A DNA stretch of 41,322 bases from an uncultured Bacteroidales bacterium (GCA_963747625.1 CAVVGP010000161.1:1-41322); one strand, 5' to 3'; positions 6,678 to 41,322 are shown, counted from the first letter of the stretch. Notes: generated by a model not told the origin, from the letters alone. Numbers and translations: made by a program.

Positions 6678-6765
6678 AACTCCTTTAGTTTTATGGCTTT
6701 TAAGAATATCCAAATATACAAAATTTCACTAAATCGTTTTTTTACTCACCAAATATAACTACAAT

Positions 6766-7731
6766 TTAGGAAAATTTATTGTTTTGATTGATATTTCTTT
6801 TTTCAACATTATTCAAACTGAATGCCAGTCCTGCCTGATGGAGAAGCGATACTGGCATTAACTTATTTCCGGAAATTGCATTAAACCTGTAATTGTAATA
6901 CAGAGTGATTCTTCCGGTAGTTAGAGAAAATCCTGCCTGAATATCCAGGTTTTTTTCTGAGTCGCCTAACGCTACAATATTAATTGCCAGATACTTGCTC
7001 TCTAAAGCTGCTCCTAACCCACCATTAACATATCCATTCTGAATTTCAAAATATGTAAGAGGCTGGATTTTTAGATTCTGAGCACTGTTAACAGGAAAAT
7101 CTCCTGAAATGTGAATAAGCAGATTTCTCTTTAATCTTTCATTTGAACTCCCTGTTGGCTGACAGGTCAGGTTCAGCAAGGTTGATTAATGGAAAATCCG
7201 CCCGAAATTTTCCTGATAATAAAAAAGAAACCTGCCCCAACATCGAATATGGTTCTTCCCGGAGAAGCCAGCACTTCAGATGAAGGAAGCGATCACTCCT
7301 CCCAGAGGATCAATCTGATCGGGAAAAATTGCATTTTCAAAATTAAAGCCCCTGTGGTAAATTGAAGCAGAAAGACCGGCATTGATAAATAGGTCTTTAC
7401 CTGCCTGCAAAAAATATGCATATGACAAGCCTGCCTTCAGATCATTAATGATTCCACCCAGGTAATCATCGGTGAGATATAGACCAGCACCGCCATGGAG
7501 TTCAGAAAAATATGAGTCATATGAAAAATATACTGAATGAAGATTATAATTGTTTCCGGGATAAAAATTAAGATATGACAGCCTCAATACACCATCTCCT
7601 CCGCTTCCGGCAAGTGATGGATTATTAATCATCATCATCTGGTAACCCGGGCCCGGATCAATTTCCTGTCCGAAACAGTAGACGGGAAGTAAAAAAACAA
7701 AATAGACTAATTTATTAAGGTGTCTCAACAT
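6766..7731 (-). pseudogene. T9SS membrane protein of the PorP/SprF family, compensating indels around 7180-7275
   Basis: N-terminus MLRHLNKLVYFVFLLPVYCFGQE…YQMMMINNPSLAGSGG…YFSYDSYFSELHGGAGLYL…DQIDPLGG. The middle reads in other frames (RTIFDVGAGF…GKFRADFPLINLAEPDLS). The C-terminal beta-strand-rich part is ORF 6766-7179. Confidence 0.7.
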
Positions 7732-7834
7732 ATTAAAAATTACTGCAATATCAACGCAATGATGTCGTTATTATTATATTAATGACCTGACGTACAAAAA
7801 AACGAAATAAAGTAACAAACAAAAAGCACATTTC

Positions 7835-10800: not shown

Positions 10801-11262
10801 TTTGAAAATGATTTTAACAGTTATGTCAGCGGAAAAATAAACTATCCTCTTTCAGGTTTGAGTGAAGGGAATCATTCTCTCACGTTAAAAGCCTGGGATA
10901 ATTTTAATAACTCCTCGGAAAAAACGATTTCATTCCTGGTTGTTACCGGAGAAAAATTTATACTCCGTAATCTTATTAATTATCCTAATCCGTTTTTAAA
11001 CCAGACAAGCATTTCGCTGGAGCACAACAGGCCGGATAACGAAATGGATATTACTATAAATATCTTTGACATGAGCGGAAGGAGCATTAAAGTCATAAGG
11101 ACAAAGGTTGCAGCATCCGGTTATACCATACCCCCGATAGTTTGGGACGGAAATGATGATGGTGGAAAAAGAGTCAGCAGGGGAATATATCCATACACTG
11201 TGACAGTAATAAGCGGAAATAATGAAACTGCAAGAGCTTCAGGCCGAATGATCATTTTATAG
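7852..11262 (+). CDS. porU: T9SS sortase / C-terminal signal peptidase PorU (peptidase C25-like), with an in-frame TAA at codon 18
   Basis: MRRIFQIFLIYCFLFIR-TAA(7903-7905)-LCAQNTKDSYSSSSVLSSGIWFKIAVTSDGIYRIDYSKL is in frame with the 1044-aa ORF 8128-11262. C25-type motifs LLLGDGSYEN, YTGHGDEN and ATCEFSRFDD. C-terminal beta-sandwich (LINYPNPF…IFDMSGR…WDGNDDGGKRVSRGIY). Confidence 0.85.
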
Positions 11263-11295
11263 GATCTAAACAATATTAGGCACAAAAAATAGTTT

Positions 11296-11303
11296 TATAT
11301 TTG
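11296..11303 (+). promoter_or_regulatory. Bacteroidota -7 promoter element upstream of porV
   Basis: TATATTTG at 11296-11303; ATG at 11330. Confidence 0.45.
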
Positions 11304-11329
11304 TAAATTCGTTGAATTAAAATATCCTT

Positions 11330-12509
11330 ATGAAGAAAAAGAAAATTGCTTTGGTTATATTTCTCATAGCCCTCTCTGGGAAAACTACTATATTTTCACA
11401 GCAAAGTTCAGGAGAATTAAATGCTATCCAAACGGTTGTTCCATTTCTTACAATAGCTCCCGATTCAAGAGCAGGAGCTATGGGCGATGCCGGAGTTGCT
11501 ACTTCTCCCGATGTATACAGCCAGCATTGGAATCCTGCAAAATTTGCTTTTATCGACGGTAATGGCGGAATAGGTGTCTCTTATTCTCCATGGCTCAGAA
11601 ATCTGGTCCCGGATATTAATATAGCCTATCTATCAGGATATAAAAGAATTGACTCAAAACAGGTTGTGGCAGCAAGTCTTTTGTACTCTTCACTTGGCGA
11701 TGTGCCATTCACTGATGAATTTGGAAACCTTCAACGCACTTTTACTCCTAATGAATTTGCAATTGATGCAGGTTATTCAAGACTTTTATCCGATAATTTT
11801 TCAGGAGGAATTGCTTTCCGTTTCATATATTCCAATCTTACAGGAGGAACATACTCCGGCGGCGTTGCAACAAAACCAGGAATTTCATTTGCAGCTGATG
11901 TTTCAGCTTACTACCATAAGCCTATCAGTTTATTAAGCAAGGATGGGCAAATTGGATTTGGCGTTAATTTTTCAAATATCGGCACAAAAATGAGTTATTC
12001 ATCAGTGCAAGCTGCTGATTTCATACCTATGAATTTGCGCATCGGAACATCCGCAACAATTAACCTCGACCAATTTAATAAATTAACTGCCACCCTCGAC
12101 CTTAATAAACTTCTGGTTCCGACTCCTCCTATTTATAGCAGTACAAACCCCGATAGCATAATAAAAGGCAGAAATCCTAATGTCTCTGTCCCGGTTGCAA
12201 TAATACAATCATTCTATGATGCCCCGGGCGGATTTAAGGAAGAAATGCAGGAAATTACCTATTCGATCGGACTGGAATACTGGTACAATAATCAGTTTGC
12301 CATCAGGGGCGGCTATTTTTATGAAAATCCGACAAAAGGAAACAGAAAGTACTTTACTGCCGGAGCAGGATTCAGGCTTAAAGCAATTACACTTGATTTC
12401 TCATACCTGATGCCGGTTGCACAAAATAATCCTCTTGCTCATACCTTACGTTTTTCGATAGCATTCGATTTCAATTCGCCAAAAAATGCCAACAGGATCA
12501 AAGGGATGA
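11330..12509 (+). CDS. porV: T9SS outer-membrane shuttle protein PorV (LptO)
   Basis: Signal peptide, then [30 protein letters not shown]…HWNPAKFAF and beta-barrel-like repeats. As assembled it runs in frame into ispF. Reading the A6 run 12481-12486 as A5 gives TGA 12507-12509, which overlaps the ispF ATG (ATGA). Confidence 0.8.
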
Positions 12510-12983
12510 ATATAAGGATCGGGCAGGGAATTGATTTTCACCAACTTAAAACAGGATTGGATTTATGGCTGGGAGGAGTGAAGATACCTTCCGAAAAAGG
12601 ATGTGTGGCGCATTCTGACGGCGATGCACTACTGCATGCAATATGTGATGCCCTTCTTGGTGCAGCGGGATTAAGAGATATCGGATATTATTTCCCCGAT
12701 ACATGATAACAAGTATAAAAATATCGACAGTAAAATACTGCTGAAAGAAACATATGACCTGATAAGACAAAAAGGATTACAGATAATTAATATTGATAGT
12801 ACAGTATGCCTGGAAAAACCTAAAATATCCTCTTTCATCCAGGAAATGAAAAAAACTATATCAGCCATAGTTGAAACTGAACCTGACAATGTAGCAGTGA
12901 AAGCCACCACTACTGAAAAACTTGGTTTCACGGGGAGAGAAGAGGGAATTATCGCAATAGCAGTCGTATTGCTTTCAAAATAA
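12506..12983 (+). pseudogene. ispF: 2-C-methyl-D-erythritol 2,4-cyclodiphosphate synthase, 1-nt insertion near 12704
   Basis: [14 protein letters not shown]…[31 protein letters not shown] | DNKYKNIDSKILL…VKATTTEKLGFTGREEGIIAIAVVLL, TAA at 12981-12983. Confidence 0.85.
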
Positions 12984-19713: not shown

Positions 19714-22345
19714 ATGAAGGCACAGGAACTGAGGCAATTATTTTTTGAATTTTTTAAATCTAAAGGACATCATATAGTGCCTTCAGCACCAATGGTAATT
19801 AAAAATGACCCGACACTTATGTTTACCAATGCCGGGATGAACCAGTTCAAGGATATATTCCTCGGTAACATACACCGGTGAACATAAAGAGTAGCAAACT
19901 CACAAAAATGTTTAAGGGTTTCAGGCAAACATAATGATCTTGAAGAAGTTGGACATGACACTTATCACCATACGATGTTTGAGATGTTAGGCAACTGGTC
20001 ATTCGGTGATTATTTTAAGAAAGAAGCTATCGAATGGGCGTTGGGAATTACTTACAGAAACTTGAAAATTGATAAGGACAGATTGTATGTTACAGTATTT
20101 GAAGGTAATAAAGAGGAAATGTTGCACGTGATGATGAAGCATATACCTATAGGGAAAAATGTATTTCAGAACCCGAAGAAGGATTATCTGAAGGATCAAA
20201 AAAAGACAATTTCTGGGAGATGGGTGAAACGGGACCATGCGGACCATGTTCAGAAATACATATTGATCTAAGGGATGAGGAGAGAGAAAAAAGATACCAG
20301 GGGATGAACTTGTAAATAAAGGACATCCACTGGTGATTGAAATATGGAATCTGGTCTTTATCCAGTATAACCGAAGGTCTGATGGATTCTTGAGCAACTT
20401 TACCTGCCAAACATGTCGATACCGGCATGGGATTTGAAAGACTATGTATGGTTGTTCAGGGTAAAAAATCGAATTATGATACAGATATTTTCCAGTCCGA
20501 TAATAAAGGAGATTTCTTCAATAACAGGTAGGAAATACGGGGTAAATGAAAAATGGGATATCGCACTCCGTGTTGTTGCAGATCATCTGAGAGCAGTAGC
20601 CTTTTCAATTGCCGATGGACAATTCCCTTCAAATAATAAAGCAGGATATGTTATAAGAAGAATTCTCCGACGGGCGGTCAGATATGGTTATAATAACCTT
20701 GGTATAGAGGAACCATTCATGTATCAAACTTGTTCCAGTACTTGCATCGACAATGGGAGACAATATCCTGAACTTCAGTATGGCAAAGAACAGATCTCGA
20801 AAATAATCCTCGAGGAAGAAATTGCCTTTCTTAAAACTCTTGGAAAAGGATTAAAGATGATTGAGAAAATGATCACTGATCTCAGGAAAGAGCATAACAA
20901 TATTCTCTCCGGGGAAAGTAGCCTTTGAGATGTATGATACTTTTGGATTTCCTGTTGACCTTACTCAGCTGATTCTTAAAGAAAATGATATGCAATCTTG
21001 ATATGAAAGGATTTGAGGAAGAGATGAAGAATCAGAAAGACCGTTCACGTGAAGATGCCTCTGTTGAAGCAGCAGACTGGATAGTTATAAAGGAAATAGA
21101 AGGGACCGCATTCACCGGTTACCACAAATTGGAAGATGAAGTCTGCATAACAAAATACCGGAGAGTAAAGGTTAAAGGAAAAGAGACGTTTCAGATTGTT
21201 TTTGATAAAACCCCATTCTATGCTGAGGCCGGTGGTCAGACTGGAGATACTGGTTTTATCTTATCCGGAAATGAAAAAATTCTCATTTCAAATACGATTA
21301 AGGAGAATAATCTGATAATTCATATTGCCGCTAAAATGCCGGCAGATGTTACTAGTGTGTTAAAAGCGACGGTAGATTTCGAAAAGCGTCTGATGACCGC
21401 CAATAATCATACTGCCACTCACCTGATCCATTTTGCGTTACGTTCTGTCCTTGGAAATCATGTGGAACAGAAAGGTTCTCTAGTAACTCCTGATCGACTG
21501 CGTTTCGACTTCAGCCATTTCAGCAAAATGAGTAAGGAGGAATTTCAAAGGTTGAAGATCTGGTGAATAAAATGGTCAGGGCAAATTATACCGGGAAGAT
21601 AACCGATGGAGTTTCTATGGAAAAAGCCAGATCGATGGGTGCTATGGCTCTTTTTGGAGAAAAATATGGTGATCGCGTAAGAGTTGTCGAGTTTGGAAAA
21701 TCAATTGAGCTGTGCGGAGGAACCCATGTTAAAGCTACAGGTAGTATAGGCCTTGTAAAAATTGTTTCAGAAGGCGCCATTGCTTCCGGCATTAGAAGAA
21801 TTGAAGCTGTAACTGCCTCAAAAGCTGAGGAATATATTAATGAAAGATTAAATATTGTCGAAGAGATTGGCACACTTTTAAAGAGTACTGGAAACATATC
21901 AGAAAGTATTGAAAGACTTCTGGCAGAAAATAATTCCCTTAAAAAAAGTGTCGAAAAATACCAGGTTCAGTTTACTGCCGGAAGGATGAAAGAACTTATA
22001 GATAAAGCGGTAAAAATTAATGATATAAGATTTATTTCCGGCCAGATTGAAACCGATTCAACCGATGTGATAAAGAATGTTGCCTATCAGCTTAGAGGAT
22101 CTTCTGTAAATACAGTAATGGTTATCGGATCAGAAATTGCGGGAAAAGCAAATTTGCTGGTTACGGTTAGCGATGATCTTGTAAATGAAAGAAACCTTAG
22201 CGCAGTTGACATTATCAGGGAAATTTCAGGAGAAATCAATGGAGGCGGAGGCGGACAACCTTTTATAGCAACTGCAGGAGGAAAGAAGCCGGAAGGCATT
22301 AAATATGCATTTCTAAAGGCTGCTGAATTCCTGAAAAAATTCTGA
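19714..22345 (+). pseudogene. alaS: Alanine--tRNA ligase, six or more frame breaks or in-frame stops
   Basis: [52 protein letters not shown]…[51 protein letters not shown]… Editing domain NNHTATHLIHFALRSVLG. C-terminal DHHA1-like GGGGGQPFIATAGGKKPEG. TGA at 22343-22345. Confidence 0.9.
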
Positions 22346-29644: not shown

Positions 29645-30997
29645 ATGATATATAAATCAAAGCTTATGGCAAGATTAAATATAGTACTGCCTGCAATGGG
29701 AGAAGGAGTAATAGAGGCAACTGTTAATAAATGGCTCGTCACTGAAGGATCACATGTAAAAGAAGATGATCCTCTTGTTGAGGTGGCAACAGATAAAGTG
29801 GATTCTGAAGTTCCGGCTCCCTCGGCCGGCATTATAGTTTCAATAATAGCAAAAGAGGGTTCGGTTGCCAAAATCGGGGAATTACTGGCAATAATTGAAA
29901 ATAATGCCGTTCCGACTAAGGAGGATCTTAAAAAAGTTGATGTGGAAGTAGGGAGAATCCGCGAAACAATTGCTCCATAAAACAAAGTAATACTGAAATA
30001 GAAGTCATTGTCGCATGATATGAAAAGCCGGACACCATCAGGTAAATTCATATCACCACTTGTTAGAAGTATTGCCGCACGCGAAGGGATAAGTTACGAC
30101 GAGCTTGATAAAACAACCGGAACAGGGATGGACGGCAGGATAACAAAAGATGACATATTGAGAATTATTGAAGAGAAGAATATTGCAACAAAAACAATAA
30201 AGGCGGATGAATTTGCGAAAATGAAAATGTTTTAAATGAAGCAAAGAGTTCTAAGAAAGAACCAGTGACTTTAATCAGGGCAGCAAACAGATGAGATAAT
30301 ACCGATGGACAGGGTCAGGAAAATAATAGCAGAACACATGATTCTGTCAAAAAGAACATCACCTCATGTTACATCATTTATTGATGCCGATGTAACCCGT
30401 TTAGTTAACTGGAGAAATGCCAACAAGGAAAAGTTTATGGCAGCGGAAGGTCAGAAACTTACTCTGACACCCATTTTTATTGATGCCGTTGCAAAAGCTC
30501 TCTACGAATTTCCAATGGTCAACATTTCAGTTGATGGTGATAATATAATCAAAAAGAAAAACATCAATATTGGAATGGCCACTGCACTACCTGACGGCAA
30601 TCTGATTGTCCCGGTCATAAAAAATGCCAATGAAAAAAGTCTTACAGGACTGGCAAAAGCTGTGAATGATCTTGCAGGAAGAGCCAGAATAAATAAGTTA
30701 AAGCCCGATGAAATTACAGGTGGTACCTTTACTATCACAAATTTTGGAAGTTATAATAACCTGGCAGGAACACCAATTATAAATCAACCGCAGGCTGCCA
30801 TTCTTGGTACAGGTGTGGTCCGGAAAATGCCGGTGGTGATCGAAACCACTGAAGGAGATGTGATCGCAATCAGGCAGATAATGATACTTTCATTAAGTTA
30901 TGACCACAGGGTTATTGACGGCGCACTTGCCGGAAAATTCCTTCACAAAGTGAAAGAGATTCTTGAAAATTATTCTCCTGACAATGATTTAATGTGA
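29645..30997 (+). pseudogene. 2-oxoacid dehydrogenase E2 (dihydrolipoamide acyltransferase), two frameshifts
   Basis: Lipoyl domain LPAMGEGVIEATVNKWLV…LVEVATDKVDSEVPAPSAGII. Subunit-binding domain SPLVRSIAAREGISYDELDKTTGTGMDGRITKDD. Catalytic domain ORF 30305-30997 ending LSLSYDHRVIDGALAGKFL. Confidence 0.85.
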
Positions 30998-31240: not shown

Positions 31241-34112
31241 ATGATGAAAAGGTTAGTTCTCTTAACGTGGCTTCTGGCTACATTTATCAATTCTGATTTA
31301 TTTTCTCAGTCCAAAGGAGATCTGAGAGATAATTTTTATGATGCCGAAAGCTGGATTTTGTTTGAATCTTACCAGGACGCATTGCCTTTATATCTGCAAT
31401 TATTGAGAAAGTTACCCGGATAATTCAAATTTCAAGTACCGGATCGGCCAATGCTACATAAATATCCCGGGAGAAAAAGTTAAAGCTGTCAGTTACCTTG
31501 AAGACGCAGTTAAGAATATTGATCCGAAATATAAAGAGGGAAAATTCAATGAAACGGGAGCACCTTATGATGCTCTATATTATCTTGCCAATGCATACCG
31601 GATAAATAACCAGATCGATAAAGCTATCAGAGCTTATGAACTTTTCCGAAAAAACCTTAACCCCGAAGTTTACGATTCGACAGTTGTAAACCTCCAGATC
31701 CAATCGTGTCGTAATGCCAAGTGATACTTATGAAGATGCCACTCTATGTTAAGGAGAAAAACCTTGGTAAAATTATAAACAGCAGCAATAATGATTATAA
31801 TCCGGTTGTGTCTGATAAAGAGGATCTTATTGTCTTTTCCAGAAGCCAGGCATTTTATGATGCACTTCTTTACTCGGTTAAAGTAAATGGTGTATGGACA
31901 GAGCCACGGAACATGAATGAGTTGCTGAAGGTCGACAGGGATCTCTTTCCAACTTCTATATCAAAAGACGGAAAGGATCTTTATCTCTACAGTTCAGCCG
32001 ATTATGACGGGAATATTTATACATCACGATTTGAGAACGGTGCCTGGGCCCCTATTGTAAAACTAAATGATAACATCAATACAAAATACTGGGAGTCACA
32101 TGCAACAATCTCACATGACAACAAAAAACTATACTTCACCAGCAACAGAAAAGGAACATACGGAGGACTTGACATATATGTTTCAAAACGTGACAGCACA
32201 GGCGACTGGGGACCTGCAGTTAATCTCGGACCTGTAATAAATACACCGTATAATGAAGAATCTCCGTTTTTAAGCGAGGATGATCAAAACCCTGTTCTTC
32301 AGCTCCAGAGGACATTTTAACATGGGAGGCTATGACATCTTTTTATTCTACACTGCTTGATAATGGGGAATGGACAGTTCCTATGAATGCCGGCTATCCT
32401 TTAAACACTACCGACGATGATGTGTTCTTCTATCCGATTAATCAAGGTTATGACGGATATATTTCAAAGGAACTTCCGGGTGGTTTCGGGAAACAGGATA
32501 TTTACCGAATCGAAATTTTTTCAGATGAGCATCCCAGAAAATTTATTATAAAAGGGATAGTAAATATAGCCGACCTGATCAGCGATATGAATGATAGCGT
32601 GAAGATTAGCGTTATGAATATTAAAAAGCCGGGCAAACTGATAACTGATTATTCAAATCCTAAATCAGGGGAATTTGAGCTTCATCTGCCCCAGGGAGAT
32701 TATCAAATCACATATGAAGCAGATGGAGCTGAAAAAGTAGTCAGAAATCTGAACCTGCCTCTGCAGAATCCATCTGACACTATTCTACTGCCGGCAACAA
32801 TCTTACCGAAAACAGACTTTATCGCAGATTTAATAGTTGAAACAAATAAAACTATTTCTGTAACAAACGGCGACACAATCCTTTTCCCTCTGAAAGTGGA
32901 ACCACGATCTTCGCTTACTATCGAACATTGGGTTGGGGATTCTTTAGTTTCAGCTGAACACTTTAAAGTACTGGATTCAACTTTTAACTATAAGATGGTA
33001 CCAAGTCCGGGGAACAACAGAGTGGTCTTTAAACTCACTGACAGGTTCAATAATACAACTCAAACCGAAGTACTTGTTATAAGGGAGAATAAAACTGTAA
33101 AACAACCTGAAATAAGCCCGGAATATAACAGAATAATATCACAAAAACAGATCGAATCATTCTCCTCAGTGTTGAAGAGCAGGGCTAATGATAGTCTGCT
33201 TAAGGTTATTTCAGAAGCAAATCTTGAAAATAAAAAATTCGGGAAAATCGATGATTATATCTCATATCTGAAAGAAGAAGCAGGTAAAAAAGGCATAAGT
33301 ACTGATGAGGTTGATAAACTGGCCCTGAAAGTGGCACTGATGGATAATATACTAACACAGGCTGCAGTTGATTTCCTGGCCAGAAACACAGAAGGCGAAC
33401 TGAAAAACCTTCTTTCAGATCTTGATATTTATAAAATGAATCTTAAGACCTGGACTGATTTACAGGAGTATATTAAAAATAAGTCAGATGGAAGGATAAG
33501 CCCTGATGACCTGAATAGGATTGCTAATGCAATTCTTGCGGGAATAGATCCGTCAATAGCAATAATAAGAAATAAAATCCTGGTCTTCAGTGAAAATTCA
33601 AGTGAAGGAGATCTGATCCGCCAATCTTTGACAAGCTGTCGACCAGAGCAATATCAAAACAAGAGGAAAATGGCTGAAGGCATATTATAATGAAGCTATC
33701 GGTCACGGTCTTTCGCAAAGACAGGTTTCGGAATTGCTGGTCGACTATCAGCTCATTACCTAGTACTAACGCGGCTCAATATCTTAAAGATCTGATCGGA
33801 AAATCAGAAGAACCTCTTATATCTTCACTGAAGTCAATAGATCTTAAGAAAGAAAAAATTAAAACTGTTGAGGATCTGATTTCTTATCTGATTACAAATA
33901 AGAGAGAAGTATTCCGGCGAAGCTGTTTTCAAGAGTATTGCTGACCTTATCACTTCAAAAGACATATCAACTGAGGATCATTAAATCACATTTTAAACAT
34001 GTCGCGCCAAATCTGATCTTATGGATACTATGGGTTCTTACTTGGAGCCGGCATGTTAATCCTATTCCTGATACTGATAAGAAGGAAAAAGAATAAAGAA
34101 AAAGAGAAATAA
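31241..34112 (+). pseudogene. PorE-like paralogue A: signal peptide, TPR, PD40 beta-propeller, CRD/Ig-like sandwiches, long helical region, C-terminal TM anchor. At least 6 frame breaks.
   Basis: MMKRLVLLTWLLATFINSDLFSQ; TPR (GQCYINIPGEKVKAVSYLEDAVKN in a shifted frame); PD40 repeats NDNINTKYWESHATISHDNKKLYFTSNRKGTYGGLDIYVSKRDSTGDWGPAVNLGPVINTPYNEESPF and GGYDIFYS…GYPLNTTDDDVFF. CRD-like FIIKGIVN…GEFELHLPQGDYQITYEADG. Helical 33100-33950. End …GAGMLILFLILIRRKKNKEKEK, TAA 34110-34112. Confidence 0.7.
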
Positions 34113-34116
34113 GGAA

Positions 34117-34142
34117 ATATGACCGATTTCAGTCGGTCATAT
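34117..34142 (+). terminator. 10-bp perfect hairpin immediately after paralogue A (candidate terminator)
   Basis: ATATGACCGA-tttcag-TCGGTCATAT at 34117-34142. The downstream sequence is A/T-rich but has no clean T-run. Confidence 0.45.
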
Positions 34143-34188
34143 TCATAAAATAATATATGATTAATAATTCTTTTGCTATTTTTTTTAA

Positions 34189-34196
34189 TAAATTTG
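34189..34196 (+). promoter_or_regulatory. Bacteroidota -7 promoter element upstream of paralogue B
   Basis: TAAATTTG at 34189-34196; ATG at 34216. Confidence 0.4.
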
Positions 34197-34215
34197 TTTA
34201 CCAAAATCTCTGTCT

Positions 34216-35503
34216 ATGAGCAAAAGAGCAGTATGTCTGTTGTTAATAATATTTTTGATCATTCCTGCTTATGCACAAGAAAATAAAGAGCTCCAGGATT
34301 CATTTCTTGAGGCTGAATATTTTCGTATGAATGAAGCTTATTCAGACGCTCTGATAAACTATCTGCAACTTTATGAAAAACTCCCTGACAATGCAAACCT
34401 GGCTTATTGTGTTGGTGTATGCTATCTGAATATCCCGGGGAAAAAGAACCTGTCTATTGAGTATCTTGAAAACGCAACAAAAAACATGTCGGCCACACAT
34501 AAAGAGGGCACACTTACGCAAACTGCAGCTCCATACGACGCATTGTTTGAACTTGGAAAAGCATATCGCATAAATTACAGGTTTGATTTGGCAAAAGAGA
34601 CATTCGCCAAATACCTTGCCACACTTCTTCCTGACGATCATGAGAACATTGATTTTGTTAAGAATGAAATGGCGGTATGTGATATGGCGAAAGATCTTAT
34701 TGCCAAGCCTGTACATATACAGAGGAAAATGTAGGGGAACTCTTTAATGATGAAAAATCAAACTTCAATCCTTTGATTTCAGCCGACGGGAAATCTTTTG
34801 CTTATATGGTTTCTCTGAAATTCTATGATGCCGTAATGTTTTCAAAACTTGTCAATGGGAAATGGACAGCTCCTGTCAATATCACTCCTGAATTACAATC
34901 TGATGGAGATTTTTATATTTCATGTCTTTCGGCAGATGGAAAATTACTCTTCCTTTCCAAAGATGATCATGTTAACAGTGACATCTATATGAGTAAGTAT
35001 AATGGTGAAAATTGGAGCAAAACTGTTAAACTGAATAAAAATATTAATACAAAATACTGGGAATCACATGGTTTTATATCCCAGGATGGAAATCAACTTA
35101 TTTTCGCCTCCGACAGGCCCGGTGGTTTTGGTGGACTCGATCTATATGTCTCCCGTAAAATAAATGGTGACTGGGGACCAGCGGTTAACCTTGGCCCGAA
35201 ATTAATACGCAATTCAATGAAGACAGACCATTCCTTATAAATGACGGGAAAACTTTGTTTTTCAGTTCACAGGGTCATGAGAATATAGGAGGTTATGATC
35301 TCTTCAGATCTGATCTTCAGTCAAACGGACTGTGGAGTGAACCTAAGAACCTGGGTTATCCTATAAATACTCCTGATGATGATATATTCTTTATGCCCGT
35401 TGGAGACGGTAAATCGGGTTACTATTCAAAATTTAAAGATACAGGCGGATACGGGAAAGAAGATATTTATAAGATCACCTTTCAAATAATAACAGGCTTT
35501 TGA
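34216..35503 (+). pseudogene. PorE-like paralogue B: signal peptide, TPR and PD40 beta-propeller only. Two frameshifts.
   Basis: MSKRAVCLLLIIFLIIPAYAQ; GVCYLNIPGKKNLSIEYLENATKN; NKNINTKYWESHGFISQDGNQLIFASDRPGGFGGLDLYVSRKINGDWGPAVNLGP; GGYDLFRS…GYPINTPDDDIFF. Stops at 35503 with no CRD or cell-wall-binding domain. Confidence 0.7.
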
Positions 35504-35528
35504 TCAACTAAATCCGTTGGATAATTAA

Positions 35529-35536
35529 TATATTTG
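35529..35536 (+). promoter_or_regulatory. Bacteroidota -7 promoter element upstream of paralogue C
   Basis: TATATTTG at 35529-35536; ATG at 35542. Confidence 0.4.
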
Positions 35537-35541
35537 TTTTA

Positions 35542-37504
35542 ATGGCAAAATTCAGAGTAAAGATTATAAGTGTTCTGCTGCAACTAGTAACTTTAGTTTG
35601 CTTTCCGTTTGCAGTTTCTGCTCAATCTCAAAGCGAGATGAAAAAGATATTTGAAAGGGCAGAATCATATTATCTTTATGAGGATTATGAACTTGCTAAT
35701 CAGCTCTATCTTCTTCTTGATACTGCTGACAATCTAAATATTAAATATAAAATTGGCAACTGTTACCTGAATATCCCGGGTGAAAAAGAGAAATCAATCC
35801 CTTACCTTGAAGATGCTGTTAAAACAGCCACTTATGATTCAAAAACGGAATCCTTTAAAGAAAAAAGTGCCCCACTTGATGCCTATTTTTCACTGTCTAA
35901 AGCTTATCTGATTAATAATCAACTGGAAAAAGCACTCAGTACTCTGCAAACATTCAGTAAGCTGGCCCGGGAGGCAAAATCCAAAGGAGGAATGAAGAAC
36001 TTCGAGTATATCGATCAACAGATCCAGGCCTGCAAGAATGCAATTCAATATAAAGAGATCCAATGACATTCAGCAAAAAGACGATGGGAAGTGATTTAAA
36101 CCAGGGTGCAATAAATGAAAACCCTGCAGTTAGTTTTGACGGCAACACATTAGTTTACACTGAACGCAGAGGAATTGTCAATGCTATCTTCTATTCAAAA
36201 AAGGAGAAAGGAAAATGGCAGACTCCGGTAGAAATAACTGATGAACTTAATGCCGGCGGAAGATTGTTCCACATGTTCACTTAACAGTGATGGCACTGAA
36301 ATGTTTCTATATAAAAATGATAATTATGATGGTGAATATATATTCCTCTAATTATGTGAATGGAGCATGGACTCCAATTAAAAAACTAAACAAGAATATT
36401 AATACCAAGTTTTATGAATCCCATGCCTCTATTTCTCCGATGGTAAAAAACTGTATTTTACCAGCAACAGGGATGGCGGACAGGGGAATCTCGATATTTA
36501 TGTTTCTGAAAAAGATGCTTCAGGCGACTGGGGACCGGCAGTAAATCTTGGGGCTGCAATAAATACACCATATAACGAGGATACTCCTTTTATAACTCAG
36601 AATGATTCGATCCTATATTTTAGTTCAGAAGGACATAATTCAATGGGCGGCTTTGATAATTTCAAAAGCCGGAGAACAGGAACAACCTGGAAAACTCCGG
36701 CTAATCTGGGATTTCCTATTAATACAACTGATGATGATAAATTCTTTCAACCGGTGAATAATGGGCAAAATGCTTATTATTCAATGACAACAGGTTACAA
36801 AAAGAAAGATATATTTTATCTCGGCTTGGGAAGAACGGATGTCAACCAACTATTTGAAATAAAAGGAAGTTCAGCCTGAAAGATACTACTGTCACCTTTG
36901 ATAAGAATTATTCCATTCATCTTGATTAACAAAACATCAGGAGATACTCTCGATGTCGGTTACCCAAATAAGTATACCGGCCTATATAGCTTTTCCGTAG
37001 CTCCCGGACAATTCAATATATTTTATAAAGGATATGGATTTATAACTCAGACAGATCGATACTGCAATTTTGCAGGACAATCCTAAGATGATCAGATTAA
37101 TATAGATGTTACTCTGCAAAGAGATACTTCTATAATTAACGGATATAGCATGAAGCCACCTGTAGTATATGATAAGATCGATCTCGCACTAATACCAACA
37201 GTTGCCTCAGTTGATACAAGCATCTTGATAAGAAATCTGAATGTAAGTGATGTAGGCGATATCAATATCAAGGACTCTGATGTTCTTTACTATACAGTTC
37301 AGGTAATGGCGCTTCATAATCCTGTTGATATGACCTATTTTAAATACATCTCCGATATGAAAGTAATGTACAATGATATCGATAAGTTTTACAGTTATAC
37401 TACAGGTAGATTTCCTACAAGGGAAGATGCTTATTCCATTAAGACTGGAGTTGATAAGGAAAGGTTATCCTGATGATATCTTTATCAAGAAAGTATCAAA
37501 ATAA
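35542..37504 (+). pseudogene. PorE-like paralogue C: signal peptide, TPR, PD40 beta-propeller, CRD-like domain, C-terminal SPOR-like domain. At least 6 frame breaks.
   Basis: …FPFAVSAQSQ; GNCYLNIPGEKEKSIPYLEDAVKT; NKNINTKFYESHASISP…LYFTSNRDGGQGNLDIYVSEKDASGDWGPAVNLGAAINTPYNEDTPF; GGFDNFKS…GFPINTTDDDKFF. CRD-like FEIKG…TGLYSFSVAPGQFNIFYKGYGF. SPOR-like YYTVQVMALHNPVDMTYF…YSYTTGRFPTREDAYSIKTELIRKGYPDDIFIKKV (after dropping one G at 37447-37448). TAA 37502-37504 overlaps the next ATG. Confidence 0.7.
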
Positions 37505-39924
37505 TGAAAACTATATTCAGAAAGACTATCGTCTTATCTTTTTTGTTTTTTTACTTCCTTCCACTTTTTTCACAAGTGACATCCAAAAAAGTATTCGTCA
37601 AAGCTGTTAAGAAGGCCGATGATTTTTATTATTATGATCAGAACTATGAAAAGGCTGCCGGATTTATTTGAAGCACTTCTCAAAATATATCCCGATAATG
37701 CCAACCTTTGTGCCAAAGCTGGGAATATGCTATCTGAACCTCGATGGGAAAAGAGCTGATGCTCTGAAACTTTTATTAAAAGCATCCTTAAACGTAGTAA
37801 ATAACGAAAAGGAATATTCAGAATACGGGGAAAAAGCCCCTTTTGATACCTATCTTTACCTCGCAGTGGCATATCATCAGAACGACAGTCTTCAAAAAGC
37901 CATATCACAATATAATTATGCAAGAAAAAAACTGGGTGAAACTAAAATATTTCAGGATGATTATTTTGATAACCAGATAAGAGATTGCCGCTATGCAATG
38001 GAAATCAAGAAAAAACCTTTAACCCTGATAACTGATCTTTTTGCCCCATGGCTTATTGATTATCCGGGAGCATGTAACCCGGTTCTTTCAAAGAATGACT
38101 CGGTATTTATCTTCACACAAAAGCAGAATGGGAAAACCAGAATCTTATGCTCTTATAAATCAGGCGTATGGAAAAGACCTGTTGATATTACCAAGCAACT
38201 TGGAGGATTTGACAGGTTTTATTCAAATTCAATTACAGGCGATGGAAAATTACTCATAATTTTCATGGATGATGGTGGTGACGGAAATCTATATTACAGT
38301 CAGAGAAAGGACTCTGTGTGGAGTAAGATAAAAAGCGTGGGAAAACCAATTAATACAATTTACTGGGAATCCCATGGTTTCATAACACCAGATGGAAACA
38401 CGATGTACTTTGCAAGCAACAGGCCCGGTGGTGAGGGTGGATTTGATATCTGGTATTCAGAAAAAACTTCTAACGGCAAATGGGGTGAACCTGTTAACTG
38501 CGGGAATGCTAATTAATACACCATATAATGAAAATACTCCATTCTTCGATCCCGAAACAGGTGCGTTGCTTTATAGCTCCGACGGCTTAATCGGTATGGG
38601 AGGATATGATGTATACAGATCGGTGAAAAAAAATGGATTTTGGAGCGACCCTATCGATATGCCTTACTCTTTCAATACCTCACAGGATAATATCTTCTTT
38701 ATTCTCAATAATAATGCACCAGGATTTATAACCAGTATTTATGACGAAAAAAATAAATCGAGGAATATTTATTCTGTTGTGGCTGAAAACCCGGCTGATA
38801 AATTAATAACTGCTTTTGGAACTATCTCTCTAAAGGATGGTATGAATATTGACCGGAAACTGGTTCGTATAAAGCTTGTTGACCTGAAAAGGAGTACTCC
38901 GGAAGTCAACCTCACCTTGTCTGATTCAGCAACCTTTAAATTTGAAATTAAACCCGGGGAGTATCAGCTGCTTGTCAGTCAGGAAGGTTATAAGACCGAT
39001 ACAATTAATCTGAATGTTCCATTGTACTTTTCAGGCAGCTCAATTTCTGTTAATTCCTCACTCACTCCTGATAAGGTCTTCGGTGGCGACTTCCTGACTA
39101 TAAATAACATTCTGTTCGATTTCAACAGTTATGCTCTTACTGATTCTTCTAAAGCAAGTCTTGAAACTCTTAAATCTATCCTTATACGCTATCCTGATCT
39201 TACGGTAGAGGTTGCGGGCTATGCAGATGCTATAGGCAGCACTGAATATAACAAAAAACTGGCTGACAAAAGAGCCCAGGCTGTCATTGATTATTTTACA
39301 AAATCCGGAATACAGACTACATTATTTATTAAAAAGGCATTCGGAAAATCCAATTTCGTTGCTTTAAATAATAATCCTGATGGTTCTGATAATCCTGAAG
39401 GAAGAAAGTATAACAGGAGAGTCACTTTCGGAATTGTCGATCCGAAAACCGGTGTCGTCATTAGAAAAGAAACATATACCCCGGAACACCTCAGACAGCC
39501 GAATTCACTGAGATATAGTATCGTATTGGCCCGGACTAACAAAAAACTATATCCAAAAAATTTCTCTGTTCTGACAAAGGATAATTTCCTGTTTATCAAA
39601 GAAATTCAGACAGATTCAGCCACGATGTATGTACTAAGCATATTTTACACTAAAACAGATGCTTTAAAATACCTGGAATATGCAAAAGAAAACGGATTCG
39701 AAAATGCCTACATATTGAACCAGTATGAATTGGATCGGGTCTCGGGAAAAGACGAAGACAGTGTTGATAAATCCGTACTAAACCCTGACGAACTGAAGAC
39801 TTATACTGTTCAGGTGAAAGCTACCATGAATTCCCTTAATATCGAAAAAGTTTTCAAAGGACTTAAAGGAATAAGTGAAATAAAAACCAGCAGTGGCGAG
39901 CCGGAAAAGGGTCAAATGCCGTAA
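37504..39924 (+). pseudogene. PorE-like paralogue D: signal peptide, TPR, PD40 beta-propeller, CRD, OmpA_C, two SPOR-like domains. At least 3 frameshifts. The true 3' end is lost at the right junction.
   Basis: MKTIFRKTIVLSFLFFYFLPLFSQ; GICYLNLDGKRADALKLLLKAS; GKPINTIYWESHGFITPDGNTMYFASNRPGGEGGFDIWYSEK; GGYDVYRS. CRD ITAFGTISLKDG…FKFEIKPGEYQLLVSQEGYKTD. OmpA_C (~39091-39440) ILFDFNSYALTD…LTVEVAGYADAIGSTEYNKKLADKRAQAVIDYF…NRRVTF. SPOR-like ~39511-39720 and ~39800-39890 (YTVQVKATMNSLNIEKVF…). The last ~10 codons are G+C-rich flank sequence. Confidence 0.75.
39880..39905. other. Right compositional junction between the low-G+C core and the G+C-rich flank
   Basis: …ataagtgaaataaaaaccag|cagtggcgagccggaaaagg… The SPOR-like domain breaks off after …GISEIKTSSG, and G+C jumps (44/60 at 39961-40020). 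Confidence 0.6.
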
Positions 39925-40049
39925 CCGCACCGCCGCCGCCACCCGCCCGCAGACACCTGGCGGTGGATCCGCCGACGCGCCGCGGAAAGAGGACCACGGC
40001 CTGCGGCTGGCGACTGGCTACGCCGCGCCCCCGTTGATCCCCGCGCCGC

Positions 40050-40234
40050 TTAGCGACAGGTCCACCAGGGAGTGGGCCGGGGCGTGGAAGTGGTCAGGCG
40101 GCCGAGTTCGGATGATTCGAAGCTGGGCCGCCGCCGGTGCCGGATTCGGAAGGTGGCCGCCTTTTGGCGGCGGTAATACCAAACAGCAGCGCCCACGACG
40201 AGCACCGCGATGACGATCGGATGGCTGTCTTCAT
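40050..40234 (-). pseudogene. Possible small single-pass membrane protein in the G+C-rich flank (needs one frame correction)
   Basis: ATG 40234-40232 overlaps the upstream frame's TGA (ATGA). MKTAI…, then in the adjacent frame PIVIAVLVVGAAVWYYRRQKAA…, ending at TAA (plus strand tta at 40050-40052). Weak evidence. Confidence 0.25.
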
Positions 40235-40463
40235 GGTAGGATCGGTTTCGGGTTGAGGTTGAGGGAGAAGATTACGCCCACACGCGCTTTGGCGCGGCAG
40301 GTGCGGCCAGCACGACAGTGCCGTGCGGCATAGGAGAGGCAGCGGTCAGGGCCGCAGCCTGCGCTGCAATGTCCGCATCCGGAGCCGAACAGCCGCAGGT
40401 TGGCCCGCTCGCCGGGATACATGACGGCGGGCGTCGTGACCGTAGGCGGCATCGTGGAGGTGT

Positions 40464-41300
40464 TCACCACGGCAGGCACCTCCACCATCGGGCCAATGTA
40501 GTCGAGGGCGACACCGGGGATCGGCACGCATCGGGCGCGGGAGGCCGTCCCTCGGGCGCAGCCGGCCCAATCGGCAAGCTCAGGGCAGGCGGGACGGCGA
40601 CAAGGCCGAGTGCCGCGAGGTCCGCGATGCAGTCGGCGCGGGAGGTGACCCGAAGATAGATGTCTAACATGTGGAGAGTCGCCTGAAGCAGTTGATCGCT
40701 GACCGCCCACGGGAGGGACTGGAGGCGCTTGATGCCTGCCGTCCATTTGACCGAGACTGTTAAATGCACAGCCGAGATAAAGCAGGCTGGGGTAGGGACT
40801 GCACCGGAGGTCTTCGCTTGGACCGCCTCTGCAAAGGCGGACATGGCCAATTTATTCAGCTGATAGCTGGCGGCGACCCGCTTGAATGCTGCTCCCCATG
40901 TCCCTGCCGATGTTAGGATTCCCACGCTGGTATACAAGCATTCGGCTTTGTTGGCGGGCGTAGAGTAGATCCCATGCTCGGCCCCCACGTTCGCGTCCAA
41001 GACGTTGTAGTAGCCAGCGGCGGAGGATGGCCACGCTTCGACCACCCACGTCCCCGCAGTCGTGTTGAACCACGGCGTCAGGCTCGTGATCGTCGCCACG
41101 TCCGCAGCCCGCGTGACGGCGGCGGTCGTGGTGGGGATGGGGCTGGTTGGGATGGCACCTGCTTCAAATTGTATAAAGTCCACCGCGATCTTATCTCCGC
41201 TGGTCGCTACAAGGCAAACCCGATATTGGCCGATGTGCTTCTTGTTACCGGAGGCAGCGACACCCTCGTCCATCCGGCAGTTACCGTTATCGGCACCCAC
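40464..41300 (-). CDS. Phage tail fibre / host-specificity-like protein fragment (G+C-rich flank)
   Basis: 278-aa ORF. …KIAVDFIQFEAGAIPTSPIPTTTAAVTRAADVATITSLTPWFNTTAGTWVVEAW… and …IKRLQSLPWAVSDQLLQATL resemble the 'Q.E.G..ATS.IPT.G..VTRAAD … RLSDA.LQ.LT' C-terminal modules of proteobacterial prophage/GTA tail proteins. The last ~60 codons may belong to a following gene after a frame error. The upstream part may lie beyond the window. Confidence 0.4.
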   Translation of the reverse strand: MGADNGNCRMDEGVAASGNKKHIGQYRVCLVATSGDKIAVDFIQFEAGAIPTSPIPTTTAAVTRAADVATITSLTPWFNTTAGTWVVEAWPSSAAGYYNVLDANVGAEHGIYSTPANKAECLYTSVGILTSAGTWGAAFKRVAASYQLNKLAMSAFAEAVQAKTSGAVPTPACFISAVHLTVSVKWTAGIKRLQSLPWAVSDQLLQATLHMLDIYLRVTSRADCIADLAALGLVAVPPALSLPIGPAAPEGRPPAPDACRSPVSPSTTLARWWRCLPW

Positions 41301-41322
41301 CCCACTCCATCTTCATAACTGG

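What the first reader, a model, noticed from the sequence alone, without database searches (positions are those of the whole stretch)
31241..39924. Tandem array of four PorE-like paralogues (TPR, PD40 beta-propeller, and in three of them a CRD) with different C-terminal envelope anchors
Four consecutive same-strand genes share a Sec-type signal peptide without a lipobox Cys. They also share a TPR region with the recurring box CY(L/I)N(I/L)PG(E/K)K…YLE(D/N)A.K and a PD40 propeller with the near-identical blade NINTK(Y/F)(W/Y)ESH…(F/Y)(F/A)S(N/D)R.GG.GG.D(I/L)(Y/W)(V/Y)S…G.WG.(A/P)VN.G. Three of them (A, C, D) add a CarboxypepD_reg-like sandwich.

TPR + beta-propeller + CRD + OmpA_C is the published domain plan of PorE (PG1058/PGN_1296), the peptidoglycan-binding T9SS component of P. 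gingivalis. Only paralogue D keeps the OmpA_C domain. A ends in an inner-membrane-type C-terminal TM anchor, B ends straight after the propeller, and C ends in a SPOR-like domain.

One scaffold combined with IM, septal-PG and general-PG anchors suggests a multi-subunit, Tol-Pal-like trans-envelope tether. I do not know of such a system being described as a unit. The same window also encodes gldJ, a porP/sprF-family gene, porU and porV.
Basis: partly seen in the sequence, partly recalled or inferred. Interest (0 to 1): 0.75.

Follow-up and report, generated by a model that had tools for sequence, protein, structure and literature searches.

The report
Four-gene PorE-like envelope scaffold cluster
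Four neighbouring genes of an uncultured Bacteroidales bacterium encode related periplasmic scaffold proteins that differ mainly in how they are fastened to the cell envelope (inner membrane, cell wall, or not at all); the set is real and conserved in about 50 related species, but it is an uncharacterised variant of the known PorE/CHU_0125 protein family, not a new kind of system.

Summary
Window 31241-39924 carries four same-strand paralogues, A-D, with 32-47% identity over about 400 aa. Each has a Sec signal peptide without a lipobox, a TPR region and a TolB-like PD40 propeller.

- A adds a CRD, a beta-sandwich, a helical-repeat stalk with no PDB match, and a C-terminal TM helix with a basic tail.
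- B has nothing more.
- C adds a CRD and a SPOR domain.
- D adds a CRD, an OmpA_C domain and two SPOR domains.

In the window the genes are broken by sequencing frameshifts. D is cut at about 39897 by a chimeric join to 65%-GC phage-like DNA. Intact A-B-C-D arrays occur in 42 of 50 informative species-level MAGs, all uncultured Bacteroidales. The other 8 are six ABC, one AB and one ABCDD.

All four proteins hit NCBIfam PorE and CHU_0125 far below the curated cut-offs (120-199 bits against 600/620). They are superfamily relatives, not PorE.

The reading of PorE as a CpoB-TolB-Pal fusion is already published. A multi-subunit tether remains inference:
- no OM anchor was found;
- a terminator-like hairpin follows A;
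- promoter boxes precede B and C, suggesting units A | B | C-D.

Verdict: new variant of a known kind, moderate interest.

The parts
31241..34112 (+). Gene A, about 957 aa when frame-corrected. Layout: signal peptide 31241-31309; TPR about 31316-31721; PD40 propeller about 31778-32520; CRD-like sandwich about 32536-32820; second beta-sandwich 32827-33087; helical-repeat stalk about 33118-33963; TM helix 34020-34079; basic tail RRKKNKEKEK 34080-34109; stop 34110-34112.
   Evidence: Frames and stitching. Pfam PD40 and TPR. AF2 of the orthologue P0121 and of window 32827-33669. TolB-like propeller by Foldseek. The TM helix and K/R tail are kept in nearly all family representatives.
34116..34142 (+). 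GC-rich stem-loop directly after the stop of A (ATATGACCGA-TTTC-AGTCGGTCATAT). It looks like a terminator or attenuator.
   Evidence: One search gives the sequence; the same ATGACCGG...CCGGTCAT hairpin is in most of the 49 orthologous A-B spacers, divergent species have a different hairpin at the same place, and the median MFE of the first 60 nt is -18.7 kcal/mol. One search reports a hairpin at the equivalent position in L003 (11283-11308), but on the minus strand; the stem is palindromic, so it would also form on the gene's strand.
34189..34196 (+). TAAATTTG, a Bacteroidetes-type -7 promoter box (TAnnTTTG), 27 nt upstream of the ATG of B.
   Evidence: the motif lies 12-80 nt upstream of B's start in 43 of 56 orthologous loci, most often at 27 nt. 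Random 76-nt windows carry the motif 3% of the time. That this motif is a promoter element rests on established knowledge of Bacteroidetes promoters, not on a test here.
34216..35503 (+). Gene B, about 424 aa in orthologues. Signal peptide 34216-34278, then TPR and PD40 propeller, with no further domain.
   Evidence: The orthologues end ...KITFK immediately after the propeller.
35529..35536 (+). TATATTTG, a -7-type promoter box, 13 nt upstream of the ATG of C.
   Evidence: at 13 nt in 39 loci; within 12-80 nt in 43 of 55 loci. No such box precedes D (0/47).
35542..37504 (+). Gene C, 650 aa in orthologues. Signal peptide 35542-35625; TPR; PD40 propeller to about 36831; CRD-like sandwich around 36979-37038; SPOR-like domain about 37282-37501; stop 37502-37504.
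   Evidence: CRD homology. SPOR.
37504..39897 (+). Gene D, 831-839 aa in orthologues; about 797 aa are present here. Signal peptide 37504-37575; TPR; PD40 propeller to about 38787; CRD around 38929-39000; OmpA_C 39091-39438; SPOR1 39508-39732; first half of SPOR2 39796-39897. The start codon overlaps C's stop codon.
   Evidence: P0001 is 99% identical over window 38494-39897, and the match ends at aa 797 of 832.
39898..39924 (+). Not part of gene D. These are the last 9 codons and stop of the chimeric ORF, read from foreign high-GC DNA.
   Evidence: GC rises to 65%, and the downstream ORF 40464-41300(-) matches a phage tail protein.

Best explanation
**Shown.** The locus encodes four paralogous, Sec-exported, non-lipidated periplasmic proteins of the PorE/CHU_0125 superfamily. 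All share a TPR + TolB-like PD40-propeller module for binding partners. They differ in the C-terminal module that fixes them to an envelope layer.
- A is held in the inner membrane by a C-terminal TM helix with a cytoplasmic K/R tail. It projects its propeller outward on a CRD + beta-sandwich + helical-repeat stalk of variable length.
- B is free in the periplasm.
- C carries a SPOR domain.
- D carries an OmpA_C domain with intact peptidoglycan-binding residues, plus two SPOR domains.

The gene set and its order are conserved across an uncultured Bacteroidales lineage.

**Inferred.** The four act together as a periplasmic scaffold. Its common TPR-propeller heads engage one another or a shared, still unknown outer-membrane partner. 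Its tails tie that partner to the inner membrane (A) and to peptidoglycan (C, D). SPOR domains bind denuded glycan at the septum, so the wall-bound members would concentrate at division sites. This would be functionally analogous to Tol-Pal/CpoB, which Bacteroidetes lack as a recognisable locus. It would not be a dedicated T9SS part.
For: **Paralogy and architecture:**

**Superfamily:** NCBIfam CHU_0125_OmpA and T9SS_PorE hit all four proteins. TolB-propeller and YbgF models give weak hits. Foldseek matches the propeller to TolB structures with rmsd about 5 A over about 200 columns.

**Peptidoglycan binding by D:** D's OmpA_C aligns to PorE 6TOP, with the equivalents of Asp576 and Asn584 present.

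**Inner-membrane anchor of A:** AF2 predicts a TM helix at 915-941. The TM helix and K/R tail are retained in nearly all full-length representatives, down to 23% identity, while the number of helical units varies widely and protein length runs from 840 to 2108 aa.

**Conservation:** 63 species-level loci were found. Of the 50 that are informative, 42 are ABCD, 6 ABC, 1 AB and 1 ABCDD, always in the same order and followed by the same GNAT gene. C and D overlap by 1-4 nt.

**No lipobox:**

**Literature:**
- No tol-pal loci are found in Bacteroidetes, and PorE has been proposed as a compact CpoB-TolB-Pal tether that may traffic to the septum (PMC12204202).
- Loss of CHU_0125 gives outer-membrane leakiness and hypervesiculation (PMC5891637).
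- PorE bridges PorP to peptidoglycan, and its WD40 domain probably binds PorP (PMC9143113 and PMC12773672).
Against: - No interaction among A-D, or with any outer-membrane protein, was tested. No multimer prediction tool was available.
- None of the four has a lipid anchor or a beta-barrel, so the link to the outer membrane is entirely hypothetical.
- A conserved terminator-like hairpin follows A, and separate promoter boxes precede B and C. The genes are therefore probably three transcription units rather than one operon.
- 8 of 50 species lack D, or lack both C and D, at the locus. The full set is therefore not obligatory.
- No TolQ/TolR-type or ExbB/ExbD-type motor genes are adjacent.
- AF2 confidence is low for the last propeller blades and the CRD of A.
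- SPOR in the window's own C copy scores only 13.6 bits.
Confidence: 0.45

Rival explanations
1. The array is a T9SS accessory set. D would be this lineage's functional PorE, anchoring a PorP-type barrel and the PorK/N ring to peptidoglycan. A-C would be PorE-like adaptors that tie other PorP/SprF-like barrels, or the gliding track, to the inner membrane or to septal wall.
For: - D has the full PorE plan of TPR, propeller, CRD and OmpA_C, with the peptidoglycan-binding residues.
- The organism has a T9SS: porU scores 1225 bits and porV 492 bits, and gldJ and porP/sprF fragments lie in the same window.
- F. johnsoniae has several porE-like genes (PMC9143113).
Against: - All four proteins are far below the curated PorE cut-off and score higher on CHU_0125.
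- They have no lipobox, whereas PorE is an OM-associated lipoprotein.
- No porP-like gene is adjacent in the neighbourhoods annotated with Pfam. A BLAST of the window's PorP fragments against the ORFs of the 63 loci also found nothing, but that test is weak: the one PorP-like-looking ORF I saw by eye in L048 was not picked up. In F. johnsoniae, porE-like genes sit beside porP-like genes.
- The T9SS genes of the window are at least 18 kb away.
- D is absent from the locus in 8 of 50 species.
- I could not check whether a bona fide PorE exists elsewhere in these genomes.
Confidence: 0.25
2. The four are independent paralogues. A tandem duplication was followed by domain shuffling, producing four scaffold proteins that each serve a different partner or process. 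Adjacency would reflect history, not a shared machine.
For: - Separate promoter boxes and a terminator-like hairpin suggest separate transcription.
- Array composition varies: ABC, AB and ABCDD all occur.
- D is markedly more divergent, at 32-33% identity against 42-47% among A-C.
Against: - Order and spacing are kept across about 50 species, whose A C-terminal halves have diverged to about 39-70% identity.
- C and D are translationally coupled by overlapping stop and start codons.
- A and B never separate, apart from one locus (L065).
- The TPR box and the propeller blade motifs are nearly identical in A-C, as expected for heads that recognise the same or a similar ligand.
Confidence: 0.2
3. 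The array is an artefact: a collapsed or mis-joined repeat, or a run of pseudogenes, given the many frameshifts.
For: Every gene in 31241-39924 is frameshifted in the window. The contig is chimeric at both ends.
Against: Intact arrays of the same four genes occur in many independent assemblies. Frameshifts also break housekeeping genes across the whole window, such as alaS and the E2 dehydrogenase subunit, which is typical of unpolished long-read consensus. The chimeric junction lies after the array, inside SPOR2 of D.
Confidence: 0.02

Closest known systems
PorE (PG1058/PGN_1296) of Porphyromonas gingivalis; NCBIfam NF052230
   Same: D has the same domain order of TPR, beta-propeller, CRD and OmpA_C. 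Its OmpA_C aligns to the PorE crystal chain 6TOP (E 6e-16), with the peptidoglycan-binding Asp and Asn conserved. A-C share the TPR-propeller(-CRD) part.
   Different: - Scores are 120-169 bits against a cut-off of 600.
- There is no lipoprotein signal.
- D has two extra SPOR domains.
- A, B and C lack OmpA_C, which is essential for PorE function (PMC12773672).
- There is no adjacent porP, and no evidence of a T9SS role.
CHU_0125 family OmpA-like outer-membrane integrity protein (Cytophaga hutchinsonii); NCBIfam NF053607
   Same: It is the best-scoring curated family for all four proteins (139-199 bits). It has TPR + PD40 + OmpA_C, and its published role is Pal-like envelope integrity rather than secretion.
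   Different: The scores are far below the cut-off of 620. CHU_0125 is a single gene, found in the outer-membrane fraction and annotated as a lipoprotein. It has no IM-anchored or SPOR-bearing paralogues.
Tol-Pal/CpoB system of Proteobacteria
   Same: - The module types match: a TPR (CpoB-like), a PD40 propeller (TolB-like by Foldseek, with weak TIGR02800 hits) and an OmpA_C (Pal-like).
- A is an inner-membrane-anchored protein with a long helical periplasmic stalk, which recalls TolA.
- The SPOR domains imply the septal targeting that Tol-Pal shows.
   Different: - No TolQ/TolR motor genes are adjacent.
- A's anchor is C-terminal and is not homologous to TolA.
- There is no TolB N-terminal domain.
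- There is no lipidated Pal.
- The modules are fused and duplicated rather than encoded as separate single-domain proteins.
porE-like genes next to porP-like genes in Flavobacterium johnsoniae
   Same: Several PorE-like paralogues occur in one genome.
   Different: Those genes are dispersed, each paired with a porP-like gene and a type-B CTD cargo gene. Here four paralogues sit in tandem without porP-like or cargo genes, and they carry different C-terminal anchors.
SPOR-domain division proteins (FtsN, DamX, DedD, RlpA)
   Same: C and D end in SPOR domains. D's SPOR2 passes PF05036, and so do some C orthologues.
   Different: The known SPOR proteins have an N-terminal TM helix or a lipid anchor plus a linker. 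None is fused to a TPR-propeller scaffold or to OmpA_C.

Membership tests
PorE family T9SS protein (NF052230) | Whole-protein score at or above NCBI's curated cut-off of 600 bits | tested here: not met
   A 120.6, B 145.4, C 128.0 and D 169.4 bits, measured on the intact orthologues from L002.
PorE family T9SS protein (NF052230) | Domain plan TPR + beta-propeller + CRD + OmpA_C | tested here: met
   Met for D only, which has two extra SPOR domains. A and C lack OmpA_C. B lacks both CRD and OmpA_C.
PorE family T9SS protein (NF052230) | OM-associated lipoprotein with a lipobox Cys (PMC7192894, PMC9143113) | tested here: not met
   lipobox-like motifs in 0/60 A, 0/56 B, 1/55 C and 2/47 D orthologues. 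The window copies have SPase-I-type ends (LFS-QS, AYA-QE, VSA-QS, LFS-QV).
PorE family T9SS protein (NF052230) | Peptidoglycan-binding Asp576 and Asn584 in OmpA_C (PMC12773672) | tested here: met
   alignment to 6TOP: D2 reads ...GYTDSKGSKEYN... and the window reads ...GYADAIGSTEYN.... Asp and Asn lie in the same columns, 8 residues apart. This applies to D only.
PorE family T9SS protein (NF052230) | Binds PorP; required for T9SS secretion | not testable with these tools
   No porP-like gene is adjacent in the Pfam-annotated neighbourhoods, and a weak BLAST test found none in the 63 loci. The nearest porP/sprF fragment in the window is at 6769-7767, about 23 kb away.
CHU_0125 family OmpA-like OM integrity protein (NF053607) | Whole-protein score at or above the curated cut-off of 620 bits | tested here: not met
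   A 174.7, B 148.9, C 138.6 and D 199.4 bits.
Tol-Pal system | TolB with its N-terminal domain, at equivalog score (TIGR02800 cut-off 343 bits) | tested here: not met
   only partial propeller matches, 28-30 bits (B and C). By fold, the propeller resembles TolB.
Tol-Pal system | Adjacent TolQ/TolR/TolA motor and lipidated Pal | tested here: not met
   the neighbours are a 2-oxoacid dehydrogenase E2 subunit, a GNAT acetyltransferase, a radical-SAM protein and a peptidase M3. D has no lipobox.
SPOR domain (PF05036) | Pfam gathering score of 21 bits | tested here: met
   D2 residues 766-830 score 26.5 bits. For C, 3 of the 6 sequences tested pass (22.9-23.7 bits); the window's own C scores only 13.6 bits. 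hhalign of the C C-terminus against D SPOR2 gives 98.3%, E 2e-14.
CarboxypepD_reg-like domain (PF13620) | Pfam gathering score of 32.3 bits | tested here: inconclusive
   Only 13.5-14.7 bits. The A, C and D segments are mutually homologous (95-96.6%). AF2 gives strands but low confidence.

The most novel reading that the evidence does not exclude
A-D would assemble into one machine that replaces Tol-Pal in a Bacteroidales lineage. An inner-membrane-anchored stalk protein (A) and a soluble propeller protein (B) would cooperate with two wall-bound, septum-seeking members (C, D). Together they would couple the inner membrane, the peptidoglycan and an outer-membrane partner during division. That would be a modular envelope tether built entirely from PorE-like paralogues.
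Probability: 0.2. Interest if true: 0.7.

Novelty: new variant of a known kind. Interest (0 to 1): 0.45.

Why it matters
Bacteroidetes have no recognisable tol-pal locus. How they keep the outer membrane attached and make it constrict at division is an open question. PorE-like proteins, which look like CpoB-TolB-Pal fusions, have recently been proposed as the substitute.

This locus adds three things to that idea:
- PorE-like proteins fused to SPOR domains, which target the septum.
- An inner-membrane-anchored PorE-like protein on a variable-length helical stalk with no match in the PDB.
- A conserved gene neighbourhood that unites these forms.

If the four work together, the PorE scaffold would be a general envelope-tethering module rather than a T9SS-specific part.

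The practical value is limited. All carriers found are uncultured MAGs, and nothing about function was tested here.

Tried and rejected
- **Artefact or pseudogene reading.** Rejected, because intact orthologous arrays exist.
- **Pfam on the stitched window proteins**. SPOR was missed in C and D, and the CRD was only sub-threshold. This was resolved with intact orthologues and profile-profile comparison.
- **AF2 of full-length A** (pLDDT 66). Residues 374-534 were poor. Foldseek returned only propeller matches such as TolB and prolyl endopeptidases.
- **A second AF2 model of window 32827-33669** (pLDDT 77). Foldseek gave only weak beta-sandwich matches (MD-1/NPC2, FnIII, CBM) and nothing for the helical repeats.
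- **Internal repeat in the helical stalk.** Only moderately supported (hhalign 70%, E 4e-5).
- **Sortase-like C-terminal sorting signal in A.** JGI names some orthologues 'LPXTG-motif' proteins. Rejected: no conserved motif precedes the TM helix, and the TM helix itself is the conserved element.
- **Sigma-70 promoter scan**. Uninformative for Bacteroidetes, so I counted TAnnTTTG motifs instead.
- **BLAST for porP-like genes in the 63 loci**. It found nothing, but the test is weak because the query was fragmentary. One ORF that looks PorP-like by eye in L048 was not detected.
- **Rfam on the window.** No hits.
- **Literature searches** for this array, for A-type proteins or for SPOR-PorE fusions found nothing.
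- **Not done.** I could not test whether the same genomes hold a separate bona fide PorE. The third homologous-protein search was left unused because it would only have returned more close orthologues.

Full report
**1. What is in the sequence**

Between 31241 and 39924 the + strand carries four genes. No single reading frame runs through any of them. Stop-to-stop segments switch frame every few hundred bases, and C has two in-frame stops. tblastn with close orthologues shows at least 3 frame switches in A, 2 in B, at least 1 in C and 2 in D.

The same damage affects housekeeping genes elsewhere in the window. alaS is split into four pieces at 19888-22342, the E2 dehydrogenase subunit is split at 29645-30997, and porV runs into ispF. 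The frameshifts are therefore consensus errors of the assembly, not pseudogenisation.

The window is also chimeric. GC is 34-41% over most of its length. It is 42-58% in bases 1-900 and 65% from about 39900 onward. D matches its closest relative, P0001, at 99% identity up to window 39897, which is aa 797 of 832. The sequence then turns into GC-rich DNA whose next ORF resembles a phage tail protein. The reported end at 39924 is thus the stop of a chimeric ORF, and about 35 aa of D are missing.

**2. The genes are real**

The D query found hundreds of 831-839-aa relatives in metagenomes and MAGs. Two genomic contexts were examined: UBA1797 contig DCFT01000160, and the 4.99-Mb MAG chromosome OY970276.1. 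Both show four intact genes of 942-950, 424, 650 and 831-839 aa, in the same order. In both, a 2-oxoacid dehydrogenase E2 gene lies upstream, as in the window, and a GNAT acetyltransferase lies downstream.

**3. Anatomy**

I used the intact orthologues (L002) and the stitched window proteins.

- PD40 passes Pfam in all four, and TPR families pass in A and D.
- OmpA (60 bits) occurs only in D.
- SPOR passes at D residues 766-830.
- Profile-profile comparison over about 36-60 orthologues per segment shows three things. The C-terminal domain of C is homologous to D's second SPOR domain (98.3%, E 2e-14). D has two SPOR domains (96.5%). The CRD-like segments of A, C and D are homologous to each other (95-96.6%).
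- SPOR is the top Pfam hit in all six C C-termini tested (five orthologues plus the window's own), and the only hit in four of them. Three pass the gathering score; the window's own copy scores only 13.6 bits.
- D's OmpA_C aligns with the crystallised PorE domain 6TOP (E 6e-16). It keeps the Asp and Asn that PMC12773672 found necessary for PorE function.

AF2 of A (pLDDT 66) gives a TPR at 17-156, a propeller, and a poorly modelled stretch at 374-534. After that come a beta-sandwich at 537-605, an all-helical region at 625-903 (pLDDT 80-92) and a TM helix at 915-941. Foldseek links the propeller to TolB, with rmsd about 5 A over about 200 columns. The helical region has no PDB match. It may consist of two units of about 140 aa each.

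Across orthologues, lipobox-like motifs are essentially absent. All four proteins are therefore SPase-I substrates.

The cores are 42-47% identical among A, B and C, and 32-33% identical to D.

**4. Family placement**

NCBIfam has curated models for both characterised relatives. All four proteins hit CHU_0125_OmpA (139-199 bits, cut-off 620) and T9SS_PorE (120-169 bits, cut-off 600). They are clear homologues, but none would be named PorE or CHU_0125. Sources call D 'OmpA family protein' and call A 'hypothetical' or 'tetratricopeptide repeat protein'.

**5. Distribution**

I scanned one genome per GTDB species with an alignment of the A-specific C-terminal half. The scan found 63 loci. All are MAGs of uncultured Bacteroidales/Bacteroidia from fens, peat, soils, sediments and digesters. 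One 2.8-kb contig sits in a bin labelled Methanobacterium.

Fifty loci have at least 6.3 kb of sequence downstream of A. Of these, 42 are ABCD, 6 ABC, 1 AB and 1 ABCDD. One further locus is AB and one is A-C-D-D'.

The search used two exact peptide patterns, so more divergent carriers may have been missed. An exhaustive phmmer search of 1.84 billion cluster representatives, using A's beta-sandwich and helical segment, found only 122 clusters. Nearly all full-length ones place the segment at about residue 540 and end in a TM helix with a K/R tail. The number of helical units varies widely, and protein length runs from 840 to 2108 aa.

**6. Expression signals**

Median spacers are 104 nt for A-B and 52 nt for B-C. 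C and D overlap by 1-4 nt; the window reads TAATG at 37502-37506.

A GC-rich hairpin sits directly after the stop of A, at window 34116-34142. The same stem sequence recurs in most orthologous spacers. Divergent species have a different hairpin at the same place. A scan of L003 reports a hairpin at the equivalent position on the minus strand; the stem is palindromic, so it would also form on the gene's strand.

The Bacteroidetes -7 box TAnnTTTG lies upstream of B in 43 of 56 loci, most often 27 nt before the ATG. It lies upstream of C in 43 of 55 loci, at 13 nt in 39 of them. It never precedes D. The background rate is 3%. The likely transcription units are therefore A | B | C-D. That this motif is a promoter element is established knowledge, not a test made here.

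**7. Relation to T9SS**

The window does encode:
- a gldJ fragment at 5330-6490(-);
- PorP/SprF fragments at 6769-7767(-);
- PorU at 7906-11259 (1225 bits);
- PorV at 11330-12703 (492 bits).

These genes lie 18-26 kb upstream of A, behind alaS, an acyl-CoA ligase and other housekeeping genes. The immediate neighbours of the array, where I looked at them, are metabolic genes.

In F. johnsoniae, porE-like genes sit beside porP-like genes (PMC9143113). That is not the case here.

**8. Interpretation**

Firmly shown:
- one TPR-propeller head duplicated four times;
- that head joined to an inner-membrane anchor, to nothing, to SPOR, or to OmpA_C with two SPOR domains;
- the arrangement conserved as a neighbourhood.

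By analogy, I infer a periplasmic scaffold whose heads bind each other or a common outer-membrane partner, and whose tails fix it to the inner membrane and to septal and general peptidoglycan. The analogies are three:
- PorE bridges PorP to peptidoglycan.
- CHU_0125 maintains outer-membrane integrity (PMC5891637).
- PorE has been proposed as a compact CpoB-TolB-Pal in a phylum without tol-pal loci (PMC12204202).

The weak points are the missing outer-membrane anchor, the probable split into three transcription units, the absence of C or D in 16% of species, and the complete lack of interaction data.

The T9SS-accessory reading and the 'independent paralogues' reading both remain open.

**9. 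Novelty**

The Tol-Pal-like reading of the PorE plan is published, and so is the existence of multiple PorE-like copies. I found no paper on any of the following:
- the tandem four-gene set;
- the inner-membrane-anchored member with its orphan helical stalk;
- the SPOR fusions.

I rate it a new variant of a known kind. It is interesting as a lead on envelope tethering in Bacteroidetes, but it is confined, as far as seen, to uncultured organisms.

Noticed in passing
window 1-~900 and 39898-41322: Both ends of the window differ in composition from the 34-41% GC body: 42-58% GC on the left and 65% on the right. The right junction lies inside gene D. ORF 40464-41300(-) matches a phage tail protein (phrog_5939, E 2.5e-14). 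The contig is probably a chimeric assembly.
   Followed up: partly
whole window, e.g. 19888-22342 (alaS-like, in 4 pieces), 29645-30997 (E2 subunit), 11330-12980 (porV running into ispF): Pervasive 1-nt frameshifts break most genes, which is typical of unpolished long-read consensus. The PorV ORF continues into an IspF match at residues 396-458.
   Followed up: partly
window 34116-34142; L003 11283-11308; A-B spacers of most of the 49 loci examined: A conserved GC-rich stem-loop (ATGACCGG...CCGGTCAT), often followed by a T-run, sits immediately after the stop of gene A. Divergent species carry a different hairpin at the same position. It is probably a terminator or attenuator separating A from B-D.
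   Followed up: partly
window 34189-34196 and 35529-35536, and the same positions in orthologous loci: TAnnTTTG boxes sit at fixed distances upstream of B (mostly 27 nt) and C (mostly 13 nt), in 43/56 and 43/55 loci, and never before D. The 13-nt distance implies a very short or absent leader for C.
   Followed up: partly
L018, L032, L044, L047, L054, L059 (ABC); L048, L058 (AB); L017 (ABCDD); L065 (A-C-D-D'): Array composition varies between species. D or C+D may be missing, or D may be duplicated, while the downstream GNAT acetyltransferase gene stays in place.
   Followed up: partly
proteins P0241, P0263, P0269, P0291, P0324; P0122, P0184, P0240: Some A-type proteins are much longer, at 1130-2108 aa, and carry many more copies of the helical unit between the beta-sandwich and the TM anchor. 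The stalk length is evolutionarily variable.
   Followed up: partly
window 5330-7767(-) and 7906-12703(+): T9SS genes are present: gldJ, porP/sprF family, porU and porV. gldJ and porP/sprF are fragmented by frameshifts. All lie 18-26 kb from the array.
   Followed up: yes
L021 (PMMY01000017.1): A 2.8-kb contig with an A-type gene is binned in a MAG labelled Methanobacterium sp. This is almost certainly a binning error.
   Followed up: no
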